Shown piece after piece: positions 1-39,073 of a stretch of 64,000 nt of DNA. Where the stretch lies: the NCBI RefSeq assembly GCF_030013595.1, contig NZ_CP122768.1; one strand, 5' to 3'. Made by a program: the position numbers and the translations under genes. Position 1 is the first letter of the stretch. The number at the start of each line of letters is the position of its first letter. A model generated the notes under the pieces. It was not told the origin of the DNA. It made no database searches and worked only from the letters and a program-made list of their open reading frames with translations. Source of the stretch: Escherichia coli. Lineage in GTDB: Bacteria; Pseudomonadota; Gammaproteobacteria; Enterobacterales; Enterobacteriaceae.

Positions 1-678
1 TGAGATTGGATTGCTTTTAGTCAGCCTCTTATAGCCTAAAGTCTTTGAGTGACTAGATGACATATCATGTAAGTTGCTGATAGGTTTCCAGTTTTCCGCT
101 CCTAGGTCTGCATATTGTACTTTTCCTCTTACTCGACTTAACCAGTACCAACCCAGCTTCTCAACGGATTTATACCATGGCACTTTAAAGCCAGCATCAC
201 TGACAATGAGCGGTGTGGTGTTACTCGGTAGAATGCTCGCAAGGTCGGCTAGAAATTGGTCATGAGCTTTCTTTGAACATTGCTCTGAAAGCGGGAACGC
301 TTTCTCATAAAGAGTAACAGAACGACCGTGTAGTGCGACTGAAGCTCGCAATACCATAAGTCGTTTTTGCTCACGAATATCAGACCAGTCAACAAGTACA
401 ATGGGCATCGTATTGCCCGAACAGATAAAGCTAGCATGCCAACGGTATACAGCGAGTCGCTCTTTGTGGAGGTGACGATTACCTAACAATCGGTCGATTC
501 GTTTGATGTTATGTTTTGTTCTCGCTTTGGTTGGCAGGTTACGGCCAAGTTCGGTAAGAGTGAGAGTTTTACAGTCAAGTAATGCGTGGCAAGCCAACGT
601 TAAGCTGTTGAGTCGTTTTAAGTGTAATTCGGGGCAGAATTGGTAAAGAGAGTCGTGTAAAATATCGAGTTCGCACAT
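1..678 (-). CDS. tnp: IS10 transposase, N-terminal ~226 codons (rest lies beyond window start)
   Basis: ATG at 676-678 (minus strand), translation begins MCELDILHDSLYQFCPELHLKRLNSL; frame stays open to position 1; not in the ORF track because it has no in-window stop. Confidence 0.88.
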   Translation of the reverse strand, partial: MCELDILHDSLYQFCPELHLKRLNSLTLACHALLDCKTLTLTELGRNLPTKARTKHNIKRIDRLLGNRHLHKERLAVYRWHASFICSGNTMPIVLVDWSDIREQKRLMVLRASVALHGRSVTLYEKAFPLSEQCSKKAHDQFLADLASILPSNTTPLIVSDAGFKVPWYKSVEKLGWYWLSRVRGKVQYADLGAENWKPISNLHDMSSSHSKTLGYKRLTKSNPIS

Positions 679-739
679 CTTGTTGTCTGATTATTGATTT
701 TTCGCGAAACCATTTGATCATATGACAAGATGTGTATCC
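671..739 (+). ncRNA. IS10 antisense RNA-OUT (placed by offset from the IS10 end)
   Basis: Opposite strand to the tnp start; 9-bp stem ACATCTTGT (675-683) pairs with ACAAGATGT (724-732); corresponds to IS10 bp 115 to 47 from the outside end. Confidence 0.5.
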
Positions 740-745
740 ACCTTA
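711..745 (-). promoter_or_regulatory. IS10 transposase promoter pIN region with Dam methylation site
   Basis: GATC at 716-719 sits at IS10 bp 67-70, where the Dam-regulated -10 of pIN is known to lie; placed by offset, not by promoter scoring. Confidence 0.4.
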
Positions 746-785
746 ACTTAATGATTTTTACCAAAATCATTAGGGGATTCATCAG

Positions 786-1343
786 CGCGCAGTGGGCGCG
801 GAGTTCAACCGTATCGCCGGGGAAAACTGTCTCTACTTCGAAACCGGGCAAGGCTCGGCGCTGTCCGCTGGCGCGAACTTCGGCGCAGACCAGGTGACGA
901 TGGAAGCGCGTAACTATGGGCTGGCGCGTCATTACGATCCGTTTATCGTCAACACCGTGGTCGGTTTTATTGGGCCGGAGTATCTCTACAACGACCGCCA
1001 GATTATCCGTGCGGGCTTAGAAGATCACTTTATGGGCAAGCTGAGCGGCATCTCGATGGGCTGTGACTGCTGCTACACCAACCACGCTGACGCTGATCAG
1101 AACCTCAACGAAAACCTGATGATCCTGCTCGCCATCGCAGGCTGTAACTACATCATGGGGATGCCGCTGGGCGATGACATCATGCTCAACTATCAGACCA
1201 CCGCATTCCACGACACTGCCACTGTGCGTCAGTTACTCAACCTGCGCCCGTCACCGGAGTTTGAACGCTGGCTGGAAAGCATGGGCATTATGGCAAACGG
1301 TCGCCTGACCAAACGGGCGGGCGATCCGTCACTGTTCTTCTGA
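786..1343 (+). pseudogene. eutB: eutB 3' fragment (ethanolamine ammonia-lyase large subunit, C-terminal ~185 codons), truncated by IS10
   Basis: Frame open from 786 immediately after the IS10 end; stop at 1341-1343; C-terminus ...LNLRPSPEFERWLESMGIMANGRLTKRAGDPSLFF; followed by eutC 21 bp downstream. Confidence 0.85.
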
Positions 1344-1363
1344 TGACGCGGAGATAACACATC

Positions 1364-2251
1364 ATGGATCAAAAACAGATTGAAGAAATTGTACGCAGCG
1401 TGATGGCGTCAATGGGACAAGCGGCCCCCGCGCCGTCAGAAGCAAAGTGCGCCACCACCACCTGTGCGGCACCGGTGACCTCTGAAAGCTGTGCGCTGGA
1501 TTTAGGTTCTGCGGAAGCAAAAGCGTGGATTGGTGTTGAAAACCCGCATCGCGCAGACGTATTAACAGAACTGCGTCGCAGCACCGTGGCCCGCGTTTGT
1601 ACCGGTCGTGCCGGTCCGCGTCCGCGCACCCAGGCGTTGCTGCGTTTCCTGGCCGATCACTCTCGTTCGAAAGATACCGTTCTGAAAGAAGTACCGGAAG
1701 AGTGGGTGAAAGCGCAGGGCTTGCTGGAAGTCCGCTCCGAAATCAGCGACAAAAATCTCTACCTGACTCGTCCGGATATGGGCCGCCGCCTGTGTGCAGA
1801 AGCTGTTGAAGCGCTGAAAGCACAGTGTGTTGCTAATCCGGACGTGCAGGTCGTTATTTCTGATGGCCTGTCAACTGATGCGATCACCGTGAACTACGAA
1901 GAGATCCTGCCGCCGCTGATGGCGGGCCTGAAGCAAGCCGGGCTGAAAGTCGGTACGCCATTCTTTGTACGTTATGGTCGCGTGAAGATTGAAGATCAGA
2001 TCGGTGAGATCCTAGGCGCGAAAGTAGTGATCCTGCTGGTGGGCGAACGTCCGGGGTTGGGGCAGTCAGAAAGCCTCTCCTGCTACGCCGTTTACTCGCC
2101 GCGTATGGCGACCACCGTTGAGGCCGATCGCACCTGTATCTCTAACATTCACCAGGGCGGCACGCCGCCGGTTGAAGCCGCAGCCGTCATTGTGGATTTG
2201 GCGAAACGTATGCTGGAGCAGAAAGCATCCGGCATCAACATGACCCGATAA
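1364..2251 (+). CDS. eutC: ethanolamine ammonia-lyase small subunit
   Basis: 295-aa ORF, N-terminus [19 protein letters not shown]; immediately downstream of eutB; operon synteny. Confidence 0.93.
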
Positions 2252-2260
2252 GGAGGCATC

Positions 2261-2920
2261 ATGCCAGCTTTAGATTTGATTCGACCGTCGGTAACCGCCA
2301 TGCGGGTGATTGCCTCCGTTAACGCCGAATTTGCACGTGAACTGAAATTGCCGCCGCATATTCGTAGCCTCGGGCTGATTTCTGCTGATTCAGATGACGT
2401 CACCTACATTGCGGCTGACGAAGCGACCAAGCAGGCGATGGTCGAAGTGGTATATGGTCGCTCGCTGTATGCGGGCGCTGCACACGGCCCGTCACCGACT
2501 GCCGGTGAGGTGCTGATTATGCTTGGTGGACCAAACCCGGCGGAAGTGCGTGCTGGTCTGGATGCGATGGTTGCGAATATTGAAAATGGCGCTGCTTTCC
2601 AGTGGGCAAATGACGCAGAAAACACAGCCTTCCTGGCACATGTAGTTTCGCGTACCGGTTCTTATCTCTCATCAACCGCCGGGATCACGCTTGGCGATCC
2701 GATGGCGTATCTGGTGGCACCGCCGCTGGAAGCGACCTACGGCATTGATGCAGCGTTGAAATCTGCCGACGTGCAGTTGGTGACCTATGTCCCGCCACCG
2801 TCTGAAACCAACTACTCGGCAGCATTTTTAACCGGTAGCCAGGCCGCGTGTAAAGCAGCCTGTAACGCCTTTACCGATGCAGTGCTGGAAATCGCGCGTA
2901 ATCCAATCCAGCGTGCGTAA
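2261..2920 (+). CDS. eutL: bacterial microcompartment shell protein EutL
   Basis: 219-aa ORF with RBS AGGAGG 6 nt upstream; tandem BMC-like fold; eut operon position. Confidence 0.92.
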
Positions 2921-2932
2921 CGGAGGTTGCCG

Positions 2933-3433
2933 ATGATCAATGCACTGGGATTGCTGGAAGTGGACGGCATGGTCGCCGCGATAGATGCAGCTGATGCCAT
3001 GCTCAAAGCAGCTAACGTTCGTCTGCTCAGTCACGAAGTGCTTGACCCTGGTCGCCTAACGCTGGTGGTGGAAGGCGATCTGGCGGCGTGTCGTGCGGCG
3101 CTGGACGCAGGTTGTGCTGCCGCGATGCGTACCGGGCGTGTCATCAGCCGTAAGGAGATCGGTCGGCCAGACGATGACACCCAGTGGCTGGTTACTGGCT
3201 TTAACCGCCAGCCGAAGCAACCCGTAAAGGAACCCGACGCGCCAGTTATCGTCGCGGAATCTGCTGACGAGTTGTTGGCGCTGTTAACATCAGTACGTCA
3301 GGGAATGACGGCAGGAGAAGTGGCTGCCCACTTTGGCTGGCCGCTGGAAAAAGCCAGAAATGCGCTCGAACAGCTCTTTTCTGCCGGGACGTTACGTAAA
3401 CGCAGTAGTCGTTACCGTCTCAAGCCCCATTAA
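2933..3433 (+). CDS. eutK: bacterial microcompartment shell protein EutK
   Basis: 166 aa from ATG 2933 (track ORF starts at an upstream TTG); BMC domain LGLLEVDGMVAAIDAADAMLKAANV; RBS GGAGG upstream. Confidence 0.9.
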   Translation: MINALGLLEVDGMVAAIDAADAMLKAANVRLLSHEVLDPGRLTLVVEGDLAACRAALDAGCAAAMRTGRVISRKEIGRPDDDTQWLVTGFNRQPKQPVKEPDAPVIVAESADELLALLTSVRQGMTAGEVAAHFGWPLEKARNALEQLFSAGTLRKRSSRYRLKPH

Positions 3434-3478
3434 CCTGTCGGAGGTGCCGGGTGTCCTACAACACCCGGCATTAACATC

Positions 3479-4531
3479 ATGAAAAAGACCCGTACAGCCA
3501 ATTTGCACCATCTTTATCATGAACCCTTACCCGAAAACCTGAAGCTCACGCCGAAGGTCGAAGTGGATAATGTTCATCAACGACAGACAACGGACGTCTA
3601 TGAACATGCTTTGACAATTACCGCCTGGCAGCAGATTTACGATCAGCTGCATCCGGGCAAGTTTCATGGTGAATTTACGGAAATTCTACTCGATGATATT
3701 CAGGTTTTTCGTGAATACACTGGTCTGGCGCTGCGTCAGTCGTGCCTGGTCTGGCCGAACTCGTTCTGGTTTGGCATTCCGGCGACGCGCGGTGAGCTGG
3801 GATTTATCGGTTCGCAATGTCTGGGAAGCGCAGAAATTGCGACGCGCCCGGGTGGAACTGAGTTTGAATTAAGTACGCCGGACGATTACACGATCCTTGG
3901 CGTAGTGCTTTCTGAAGATGTCATCACTCGTCAGGCTAACTTTTTGCATAATCCGGATCGGGTATTACATATGCTGCGTAGCCAGTCGGCGCTGGAAGTG
4001 AAAGAGCAGCATAAAGCCGCGCTGTGGGGCTTTGTCCAACAGGCGCTGGCGACGTTTTGCGAGAACCCGGAAAATCTCCATCAGCCTGCAGTGCGAAAAG
4101 TGCTGGGGGATAATTTGCTAATGGCGATGGGGGCGATGCTGGAAGAAGCGCAGCCGATGATGACGGCGGAAAGCATCAGTCATCAGAGTTACCGTCGATT
4201 GCTTTCCCGCGCCCGTGAATATGTGCTGGAAAACATGTCCGAACCGGTGACGGTGCTGGACTTGTGTAATCAACTGCATGTCAGCCGCCGCACGCTACAA
4301 AACGCGTTTCACGCCATTTTGGGCATTGGTCCGAACGCGTGGCTGAAACGTATTCGCCTGAACGCCGTGCGCCGCGAACTCATAAGTCCGTGGTCACAAA
4401 GCACAACGGTAAAAGACGCCGCCATGCAGTGGGGATTCTGGCATCTTGGGCAATTTGCCACGGATTATCAGCAACTGTTTGCCGAGAAGCCGTCACTGAC
4501 GCTGCATCAGCGGATGCGAGAGTGGGGGTGA
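3479..4531 (+). CDS. eutR: AraC-family transcriptional activator of the eut operon
   Basis: 350-aa ORF; C-terminal AraC-type HTH ([42 protein letters not shown]); last gene of eut cluster. Confidence 0.93.
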
Positions 4532-4536
4532 GGGAG

Positions 4537-5439
<903 letters not shown>

Positions 5440-26157: not shown

Positions 26158-27144
26158 ATGATGCAGGATTTGCGTCTGATATTAATCATTGTTGGCGCGA
26201 TCGCCATAATCGCTTTACTGGTACATGGTTTCTGGACCAGCCGTAAAGAACGATCTTCTATGTTCCGCGATCGGCCATTAAAACGAATGAAGTCAAAACG
26301 TGACGACGATTCTTATGACGAGGATGTCGAAGATGATGAGGGCGTTGGTGAGGTTCGTGTTCACCGCGTGAATCATGCCCCGGCTAACGCCCAGGAGCAT
26401 GAGGCTGCTCGTCCGTCGCCGCAACACCAGTACCAACCGCCTTATGCGTCTGCGCAGCCGCGTCAACCGGTCCAGCAGCCGCCTGAAGCGCAGGTATCGC
26501 CGCAACATGCTCCGCGTCCAGCGCAGCCGGTGCAGCAGCCTGCCTATCAGCCGCAGCCTGAACAGCCGTTGCAGCAGCCAGTTTCGCCACAAGTCGCGTC
26601 AGCGCCGCAGCCAGTGCATTCAGCACCGCAACAGGCACAACAGGCTTTCCAGCCTGCAGAACCCGTAGCGGCACCACAGCCTGAGCCTGTAGCGGAACCG
26701 GCTCCAGTTATGGATAAACCGAAGCGCAAAGAAGCGGTGATTATCATGAACGTCGCGGCGCATCACGGTAGCGAGCTAAACGGTGAACTGCTTCTTAACA
26801 GCATTCAACAAGCGGGCTTCATTTTTGGCGATATGAATATTTACCATCGTCATCTTAGCCCGGATGGCAGCGGCCCGGCGTTATTTAGCCTGGCGAATAT
26901 GGTGAAACCGGGAACCTTTGATCCTGAAATGAAGGATTTCACTACTCCGGGTGTCACTATCTTTATGCAGGTACCTTCTTACGGTGACGAGCTGCAGAAC
27001 TTCAAGCTGATGCTGCAATCTGCGCAGCATATTGCCGATGAAGTGGGTGGTGTAGTGCTTGACGATCAGCGCCGTATGATGACTCCGCAGAAATTGCGCG
27101 AGTACCAGGACATCATCCGCGAAGTCAAAGACGCCAACGCCTGA
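26158..27144 (+). CDS. zipA: cell division protein ZipA
   Basis: 328 aa from ATG 26158 ([27 protein letters not shown]-terminal TM); long P/Q-rich linker; C-terminal FtsZ-binding domain. Confidence 0.92.
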
Positions 27145-35906: not shown

Positions 35907-35982
35907 TGGTGGGTCGTGCAGGATTCGAACCTGCGACCAATTGATTAAAAGTCAACTGCTCTACCAACTGAGCTAACGACCC
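35907..35982 (-). tRNA. lysV: tRNA-Lys (anticodon UUU)
   Basis: Reverse complement reads GGGTCGTTAGCTCAGTTGGTAGAGCAGTTGACTTTTAATCAATTGGTCGCAGGTTCGAATCCTGCACGACCCACCA, 76 nt with encoded CCA. Confidence 0.95.
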
Positions 35983-35986
35983 GAAG

Positions 35987-36062
35987 TGGTGGGTGATGAC
36001 GGGATCGAACCGCCGACCCCCTCCTTGTAAGGGAGGTGCTCTCCCAGCTGAGCTAATCACCC
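35987..36062 (-). tRNA. tRNA-Val (anticodon UAC)
   Basis: Reverse complement reads GGGTGATTAGCTCAGCTGGGAGAGCACCTCCCTTACAAGGAGGGGGTCGGCGGTTCGATCCCGTCATCACCCACCA, 76 nt. Confidence 0.95.
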
Positions 36063-36108
36063 ACTTCGGTACTTCACATTTTTACAAGAAATTTAGCTGG
36101 CGAGAAAG

Positions 36109-36184
36109 TGGTGGGTGATGACGGGATCGAACCGCCGACCCCCTCCTTGTAAGGGAGGTGCTCTCCCAGCTGAGCTAATCACCC
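36109..36184 (-). tRNA. tRNA-Val (anticodon UAC), second identical copy
   Basis: Identical 76-nt sequence to 35987-36062, separated by a 46-bp spacer. Confidence 0.95.
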
Positions 36185-38882: not shown

Positions 38883-38958
<76 letters not shown>

Positions 38959-38997
38959 AATTTTGCACCCAACAAATTTGGTACGTAAACGCATCGT

Positions 38998-39073
<76 letters not shown>

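What the first reader, a model, noticed from the sequence alone, without database searches (positions are those of the whole stretch)
671..800. Outward-facing IS10 pOUT / RNA-OUT points into the remaining eut genes
The RNA-OUT stem (675-683 pairing with 724-732) is visible on the plus strand, so the IS10 outward promoter pOUT is oriented toward eutB'-eutC-eutL-eutK-eutR. Read-through from pOUT could express the shell genes and the activator EutR independently of the native eut promoter. That would partly uncouple eutR from normal ethanolamine/B12 control.
Basis: inference. Interest (0 to 1): 0.3.

Follow-up and report, generated by a model that had tools for sequence, protein, structure and literature searches.

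The report
IS10 antisense RNA facing eut genes
The flagged stretch is the textbook outward promoter and antisense RNA (pOUT/RNA-OUT) at the end of an ordinary IS10 insertion sequence that has split the E. coli eutB gene; it does point at the remaining eut genes, but whether it drives them is an untested and already well-known possibility.

Summary
Window 1-785 is IS10-Right: it has 1 mismatch in 785 nt against IS10R of Tn10 on plasmid R100, and 630-785 is 100% identical. The outside end is at 785 and the transposase lies on the minus strand. Rfam places RNA-OUT at 671-740 on the plus strand (98.8 bits, E=2e-19).

The IS sits exactly after codon 268 of eutB. eutB' (codons 269-453), eutC, eutL, eutK and eutR follow on the plus strand and are intact.

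Published work shows that pOUT transcripts can run out of IS10 and switch on adjacent genes, and no intrinsic terminator is predicted before eutC. Three points weaken it:
- About 580 nt of probably untranslated eutB', with C-rich, G-poor stretches, invites Rho-dependent termination.
- eutR already has its own constitutive promoter, P2.
- Losing eutB abolishes ethanolamine catabolism regardless.

None of 5,426 complete E. coli genomes has this junction, but at least 12 draft contigs do. The left junction is off-window and was not found.

Verdict: ordinary, already known, low interest.

The parts
1..785 (-). Partial IS10-Right-type element (IS10 nt 785 down to nt 1; IS10 nt n = window 786-n). 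The rest of the 1329-bp element lies off the window start.
   Evidence: 1 mismatch in 785 nt against R100 Tn10 IS10R and 9 against IS10L. Thousands of copies at >=99% identity in E. coli genomes and plasmids.
1..678 (-). IS10 transposase, N-terminal 226 codons (ATG at 678-676). The frame is open to the window edge.
   Evidence: Translation is uninterrupted. NCBIfam NF033591 IS4 family transposase, 216 bits.
658..663 (+). pOUT -10 hexamer TAAAAT, 7 nt upstream of the RNA-OUT start. No consensus-like -35 hexamer is visible.
   Evidence: Read directly from the sequence. The consensus scan does not flag it. The promoter assignment rests on 100% identity to the experimentally characterised IS10R and on the literature.
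671..740 (+). RNA-OUT, the 69-70 nt antisense RNA of IS10 (IS10 nt 115 to 47).
   Evidence: Rfam RF00240, 98.8 bits, E=2e-19. Stable hairpin with z=-5.1. The 3' end at nt 47 is from PMC5006887.
671..705 (.). [quoted passage not shown] It contains the transposase start codon at 676-678.
   Evidence: Coordinates derived from PMC5006887 and the sequence.
716..719 (.). GATC Dam site, which overlaps the -10 region of pIN.
   Evidence: Sequence. Role taken from PMC5006887.
749..772 (.). Perfect 10-bp A/T-only inverted repeat (TAATGATTTT / AAAATCATTA) just inside the outside end. It forms a second hairpin in read-through RNA and is not followed by a U-tract.
   Evidence: Not called as a terminator.
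763..785 (-). IS10 outside-end terminal inverted repeat (CTGATGAATCCCCTAATGATTTT).
   Evidence: Single exact match in the window, 0 expected by chance.
786..794 (+). First 9 bp of flanking eutB (CGCGCAGTG), the presumed target site. It matches 4 of the 6 specified positions of the IS10 target consensus NGCTNAGCN.
   Evidence: Sequence. Consensus as cited in PMC2744996. The duplication cannot be checked because the other IS end is off-window.
786..1343 (+). eutB' remnant: codons 269-453 plus the stop codon. The first in-frame start is GTG at 792 (183 aa).
   Evidence: Alignment to intact eutB in L001. NCBIfam EutB profile positions 272-451 of 461, below the cut-off because the protein is truncated.
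1364..2251 (+). eutC, intact (295 aa).
2261..2920 (+). eutL, intact (219 aa).
2933..3433 (+). eutK, intact (166 aa).
3479..4531 (+). eutR, intact (350 aa), the AraC-type activator of the eut operon.

Best explanation
The flagged stretch is the standard regulatory end of an IS10-Right insertion sequence that has inserted into eutB of an E. coli chromosome, immediately after codon 268.

The primary product of pOUT (-10 hexamer at 658-663, start at 671) is RNA-OUT (671-740). This stable 69-nt hairpin RNA pairs with the first 35 nt of the transposase mRNA made from the opposite strand and blocks its translation. Its job is control of IS10 transposition, not eut regulation.

The IS is oriented with its outside end toward the distal eut genes, and neither the RNA-OUT hairpin nor the A/U hairpin that follows has a U-tract. 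A minority of pOUT transcripts is therefore expected (inferred, not shown) to run across 785/786 into eutB'. This would add at most a low, constitutive, ethanolamine-independent trickle of eutC-eutL-eutK-eutR transcription. That trickle is probably cut down further by Rho-dependent termination in the roughly 580 nt of poorly translatable eutB'.

The dominant consequences of the insertion are loss of ethanolamine ammonia-lyase (Eut-) and polarity on the distal genes from the main promoter P1. eutR keeps its own constitutive promoter P2.
For: Identity of the element:
- Rfam RNA-OUT at 98.8 bits.
- 100% identity of 630-785 to R100 Tn10, and 1 mismatch in 785 nt against IS10R.
- Outside-end repeat at 763-785.
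- Transposase N-terminus open on the minus strand.

Insertion site and downstream genes:
- Insertion after eutB codon 268, by comparison with an intact relative.
- The distal eut genes are intact.

Possibility of read-out:
- No terminator-like site on the + strand between 400 and 1312.
- The hairpins lack U-tracts.
- pOUT transcripts extend into neighbouring genes at about 10% of lacUV5 (PMC9330008 citing Simons 1983).
- IS10 inserted with pOUT facing otsB activates otsBA (PMC2744996).

Limits on the effect:
- RNA-OUT ends at nt 47 (PMC5006887).
- C/G ratios of 1.8-2.3 at about 1051-1150 and 1171-1270 exceed the 90th percentile of eutC-eutR.
- The in-frame starts in eutB' lack well-spaced Shine-Dalgarno sequences.
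- eutR has a constitutive P2 promoter.
Against: No expression data exist for this locus. The consensus promoter scan recognises neither pOUT nor pIN, so promoter activity is inferred only from sequence identity to the characterised element. Rho-dependent termination is inferred from base composition alone. The left side of the IS is off-window and could not be recovered. It is therefore not shown whether this is a simple IS10 insertion, the right arm of a Tn10, or the edge of a rearrangement.
Confidence: 0.8

Rival explanations
1. pOUT read-through gives physiologically meaningful, ethanolamine/B12-independent expression of the shell genes and EutR, which changes eut regulation or EutR-dependent signalling in this lineage.
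For: The orientation is correct and no intrinsic terminator lies in the path. pOUT can drive selectable expression of adjacent genes elsewhere. The distal eut genes are all intact. The allele is present in at least 12 public contigs.
Against: eutR already has a constitutive P2. About 580 nt of poorly translatable, partly C-rich eutB' must be crossed first. In the documented activations the IS sits close to the start of the activated gene (otsB +12/+13), not 580 nt to 2.7 kb upstream. The intact distal genes are equally well explained by a recent insertion, since the nearest relative with an intact eutB is about 99.96% identical. EutR still needs ethanolamine and AdoCbl to act, unless it is overexpressed.
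Confidence: 0.1
2. There is no effective read-out. Essentially all pOUT transcripts end as 69-nt RNA-OUT or are stopped by Rho within eutB'. In that case eutC, eutL and eutK are silent and eutR is expressed from P2 only.
For: RNA-OUT is described as terminating at nt 47. eutB' contains C-rich, G-poor windows and lacks convincing ribosome-binding sites on its in-frame starts. A weak terminator-like site lies at 1313-1330.
Against: The RNA-OUT hairpin has no U-tract and is not called as a terminator. The literature reports that pOUT transcripts extend beyond the IS end. The 1313-1330 site is native to every eutB and does not stop normal operon transcription.
Confidence: 0.3
3. Residual distal eut expression comes mainly from the native P1 promoter reading through the whole IS10 (antisense to the transposase) rather than from pOUT. 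It would therefore still be inducible by ethanolamine and B12.
For: No + strand terminator-like site is predicted anywhere in a full IS10R in this orientation.
Against: 1.3 kb of untranslated antisense IS RNA plus eutB' is a long target for Rho (inference). It is not even shown that the proximal eut genes and P1 lie to the left of this IS, because the left junction was not found.
Confidence: 0.15

Closest known systems
IS10-Right of Tn10 (plasmid R100): pIN/pOUT and the RNA-IN/RNA-OUT antisense system (Rfam RF00240)
   Same: Essentially the same sequence: 630-785 is 100% identical and 1-785 has 1 synonymous mismatch. The RNA-OUT coordinates are the same (IS10 nt 115-47), as are the hairpin, the 35-nt overlap with the transposase translation start, the Dam site and the outside-end repeat.
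   Different: Nothing in the element itself differs. Only the chromosomal location is particular (eutB codon 268/269).
IS10/Tn10 'turn-on' of adjacent genes by pOUT (Ciampi, Schmid & Roth 1982; Simons et al. 1983; the otsBA::IS10 alleles of Stoebel et al. 2009)
   Same: The same promoter, in the same orientation relative to the downstream genes.
   Different: In the otsBA case the IS lies at +12/+13 of the transcript, directly upstream of the activated gene, and the allele was selected for expression. Here the IS is inside a gene. It lies 578 nt before the next start codon and 2.7 kb before eutR, and there is no evidence of selection or of expression.
Native eutR regulation in Salmonella and E. 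coli (P1 autoinduction plus constitutive internal P2)
   Same: pOUT read-through would mimic what P2 already does, namely low constitutive eutR transcription independent of P1.
   Different: P2 is a native promoter immediately upstream of eutR, whereas pOUT is foreign and distant. The insertion also breaks the P1-to-eutR positive-feedback loop.

Membership tests
RNA-OUT (Rfam RF00240) | Covariance-model score at or above the curated gathering score, over the full-length model | tested here: met
   98.8 bits against 41; model positions 1-70 of 70; E=2e-19.
RNA-OUT (Rfam RF00240) | Long imperfect hairpin whose 5' 35 nt are antisense to the transposase translation-initiation region | tested here: met
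   MFE hairpin of -23.9 kcal/mol, z=-5.1. The transposase ATG at 676-678 (minus strand) lies within 671-705. The definition is from PMC5006887.
RNA-OUT (Rfam RF00240) | Transcribed from pOUT and accumulates as a stable RNA of about 69 nt | not testable with these tools
   No expression data. The promoter region is 100% identical to the characterised IS10R.
IS10 (IS4 family insertion sequence) | Outside-end terminal inverted repeat | tested here: met
   Exact 23-bp outside-end repeat at 763-785.
IS10 (IS4 family insertion sequence) | IS4-family DDE transposase gene | tested here: met
   226 N-terminal codons are open; NF033591 scores 216 bits against a cut-off of 152. The C-terminal part is off-window.
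IS10 (IS4 family insertion sequence) | Inside end and 9-bp target-site duplication (a simple insertion, as opposed to a Tn10 arm or a rearrangement) | tested here: inconclusive
   The left end is off-window. Exact look-ups of three predicted EutB(1-271)-IS fusion products found nothing. The metagenome scan found 0 matches and the homology search timed out.
IS-promoted activation of adjacent genes by an outward promoter | Outward promoter oriented toward the adjacent genes, with no intrinsic terminator in between | tested here: met
   RNA-OUT is on the + strand. No terminator-like site on the + strand from 400 to 1312. The hairpins lack U-tracts.
IS-promoted activation of adjacent genes by an outward promoter | Transcripts starting in the IS cross the junction and raise expression of the downstream genes | not testable with these tools
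   Needs RNA-seq, 5'-RACE or reporter fusions.
IS-promoted activation of adjacent genes by an outward promoter | Read-through escapes Rho-dependent polarity before the next translated gene | tested here: inconclusive
   C/G ratios up to 2.3 in eutB' (1051-1270) and weak ribosome-binding context for the in-frame starts suggest vulnerability to Rho, on compositional grounds only.

The most novel reading that the evidence does not exclude
In this lineage the insertion has converted the distal eut locus into a sensor-only module. eutB is dead, so ethanolamine is not consumed and EutBC no longer competes with EutR for AdoCbl. pOUT plus P2 supply EutR constitutively. The result would be stronger or more persistent ethanolamine/B12 signalling by EutR to non-eut targets (such as colonisation or virulence genes), and the allele would have been retained for that reason.
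Probability: 0.04. Interest if true: 0.4.

Novelty: already known. Interest (0 to 1): 0.08.

Why it matters
It matters little. IS10's pOUT/RNA-OUT and its ability to read into flanking genes have been textbook knowledge since 1982-83.

The only locus-specific information is that a natural E. coli lineage carries eutB::IS10. It is closely related to a pig faecal isolate, is represented by at least 12 draft contigs, and is absent from 5,426 complete RefSeq genomes. The IS is oriented so that pOUT faces eutC-eutR.

For annotation, this means the strain should be scored as negative for ethanolamine utilisation. The small ORF at 792-1343 should be called a eutB remnant, and 671-740 should be annotated as RNA-OUT.

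Tried and rejected
- **Consensus sigma-70 scan**. It found no promoter in 400-1500, in 1300-4700 or across a whole IS10R. It therefore misses the experimentally known pIN, pOUT and pIII, and it cannot locate eutR P2. It is uninformative rather than negative evidence.
- **Junction in complete E. coli genomes**. No genome covers at least 80% of window 1-1400, so the source genome and the left flank could not be taken from that collection.
- **Left junction.** Exact look-ups of EutB(1-271) fused to the IS10 inside-end tail, the IS10R outside-end tail or the IS10L outside-end tail were all not on record. The scan of JGI metagenomes for the right junction found 0 matches. The homology search with a junction peptide timed out.
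- **OUTIIp and pIII as alternative outward promoters.** Rejected for this junction, because they lie at the inside end (IS10 nt 1000-1230), which is off-window and faces the other way.
- **ORF 730-897, which crosses the junction, as a translated leader that might protect read-through RNA from Rho.** Rejected as unlikely. Its ATG lies in the 3' arm of the RNA-OUT stem and has no Shine-Dalgarno sequence (sequence).
- **Primary papers.** Ciampi 1982, Martinez-Garcia 2003 and Olliver 2005 are not held. The statement that Rho limits Tn10 read-out therefore rests on my own recollection of Ciampi et al. 1982.

Full report
**What is at 671-800**

Window 1-785 is the outer 785 bp of an IS10 element, read from inside to outside on the + strand (IS10 nt n = window 786-n).
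- The 23-bp outside-end repeat CTGATGAATCCCCTAATGATTTT sits at 763-785 on the minus strand. It occurs once in the window, against none expected by chance.
- The transposase starts at ATG 678-676 on the minus strand and stays open for 226 codons to the window edge. It matches the NCBIfam IS4-family transposase model at 216 bits, against a cut-off of 152.
- Against Tn10 on plasmid R100, window 630-785 is 100% identical. Window 1-785 differs from IS10-Right at one synonymous base (window 583) and from IS10-Left at nine. This is therefore an ordinary IS10-Right-type copy, which PGAP labels 'ISVsa5 family'.

**The observation**

Rfam's RNA-OUT model (RF00240) matches 671-740 on the + strand over its full length at 98.8 bits (gathering score 41, E=2e-19). 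Window 671-739 folds into the expected long hairpin at -23.9 kcal/mol, with z=-5.1 and 0 of 200 shuffles folding as well.

675-683 pairs with 725-733, and the whole lower stem is 673-686 with 722-735.

Published coordinates fit exactly. RNA-OUT is a 69-nt RNA ending at IS10 nt 47, which is window 739. Its first 35 nt are complementary to the translation-initiation region of the transposase mRNA (PMC5006887). That places the RNA-OUT start at nt 115 (window 671) and the RNA-IN start at nt 81 (window 705, minus strand).

A TAAAAT hexamer lies at 658-663, correctly placed for a -10 element. No consensus-like -35 is evident, and the simple sigma-70 scan does not flag pOUT or pIN. The same scan finds no promoter in a full IS10R either. 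Promoter activity is therefore inferred from sequence identity to the characterised element, not from the scan.

**The junction and what lies downstream**

Homology to E. coli eutB begins at 786. In the intact relative NZ_CM149870.1, that base is nt 805 of the 1362-nt eutB, so IS10 sits exactly between codons 268 and 269.
- The eutB frame is closed by a TAG at 771-773 inside the IS. Its first possible start is GTG at 792, giving 183 aa. This remnant matches EutB profile positions 272-451 of 461 and falls below the family cut-off because it is truncated.
- eutC (1364-2251), eutL (2261-2920), eutK (2933-3433) and eutR (3479-4531) are full length and score above their cut-offs.
- The flanking 9 bp, CGCGCAGTG, match 4 of the 6 specified positions of the IS10 target consensus (consensus as quoted in PMC2744996).

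**Source and age of the allele**

None of the 5,426 complete RefSeq E. coli genomes carries this junction. The exact 183-aa remnant is on record from NCBI and Logan assemblies. The cluster look-up lists 7 contigs and the contig look-up read 12. The one contig shown, from GCA_021649405.1, begins inside IS10.

Downstream of 786 the window is collinear with, and about 99.96% identical to, the pig faecal isolate HCP5S3_I2, whose eutB is intact. The insertion is therefore recent and lineage-specific, and the intact distal eut genes need no special explanation.

**Can pOUT read into the eut genes?**

Points in favour:
- The orientation is right.
- No intrinsic terminator is predicted on the + strand between 400 and 1312.
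- In a fold of 671-830, the RNA-OUT hairpin is followed by an A/U-only hairpin at 747-772. Neither has a U-tract after it.
- The literature states that some pOUT transcripts extend into neighbouring genes, at roughly 10% of lacUV5 (PMC9330008 citing Simons et al. 1983).
- IS10 inserted with pOUT facing otsB activates otsBA (PMC2744996).

Points against a large effect:
- The main pOUT product is the 69-nt RNA-OUT.
- Read-through RNA must cross 578 nt of eutB' before eutC, and 2.7 kb before eutR.
- The in-frame starts in eutB' have poor ribosome-binding context. The junction-spanning ORF 730-897 starts inside the RNA-OUT stem.
- Windows at about 1051-1150 and 1171-1270 have C/G ratios of 1.8-2.3, above the 90th percentile for eutC-eutR.
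- From my recollection of Ciampi, Schmid & Roth 1982 (not readable here), Tn10 read-out into the his operon was limited by Rho in just such untranslated stretches.

**The regulatory claim**

eutR is already transcribed constitutively at a low level from an internal promoter P2. It is boosted by read-through from the EutR-activated promoter P1 (PMC5821096; PMC8565329). pOUT could only add to P2.

What the insertion clearly does is remove ethanolamine ammonia-lyase and interrupt the P1-to-eutR feedback loop. EutR also still needs ethanolamine and AdoCbl to act, unless it is overexpressed.

**What remains unknown**

The left end of the IS is off-window. Three predicted EutB(1-271)-IS fusion products were not on record. 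A metagenome scan for the right junction found nothing, and a homology search timed out. I therefore cannot say whether this is a lone IS10, the right arm of a Tn10, or the edge of a rearrangement. I also cannot say whether P1 and the proximal eut genes lie immediately to the left.

The other outward IS10 promoters, pIII and OUTIIp, are at the inside end and are irrelevant to this junction.

**Verdict**

The feature is an exact copy of a textbook system, so it is already known and of low interest.

Noticed in passing
window 1135: The eutB' remnant carries a nonsynonymous change relative to the nearest intact relative (C to T, Thr385 to Ile: LLATAG becomes LLAIAG). Every contig that carries the exact 183-aa ORF shares it. 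This fits relaxed constraint on a dead gene, but it is a single change.
   Followed up: partly
window 679, compared with L002 position 76: The draft contig from GCA_021649405.1 that carries the same junction has T instead of C here. That is the IS10-Left-type base. It lies in the RNA-OUT stem (C-G becomes U-G) and at position -1 of the transposase ATG. All other IS10L-specific sites in that contig are IS10R-type. It could be a real polymorphism, gene conversion, or assembly collapse of several IS10 copies.
   Followed up: partly
window 583: This is the only difference from R100 IS10-Right across 785 nt (T instead of G; IS10 nt 203). It is synonymous, in transposase codon 32.
   Followed up: yes
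window 730-902: A 55-codon ORF starts at an ATG inside the RNA-OUT stem, crosses the IS/eutB junction out of frame, and stops at 895-897. That is 2 nt before an in-frame eutB ATG at 900, which is preceded by AGGTGA. The layout resembles a translational restart, but the upstream ATG has no ribosome-binding site and is buried in the hairpin.
   Followed up: partly
window 26158-27144 (zipA), indel near 26460-26514: ZipA is 328 aa here and 306 aa in the close relative HCP5S3_I2. This is a 22-residue length difference in the Pro/Gln-rich linker.
   Followed up: yes
window ~8100, between yfeY and yfeX: The close relative HCP5S3_I2 has an IS200/IS605 tnpA insertion here (about 700 bp) that the window lacks. 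yfeR (starting at window 30536) is intact here but has an internal stop in that relative.
   Followed up: yes
window 38883-39073: Two tandem tRNA-Ala(GGC) genes are present, where the relative's aligned region has one. tRNA-Lys and two tRNA-Val genes lie at 35907-36184 on the minus strand.
   Followed up: partly
window 1313-1330: A weak terminator-like hairpin with a T-rich tail lies on the + strand just before the eutB stop codon. It is native to eutB in other E. coli, so it is probably not a functional barrier.
   Followed up: no
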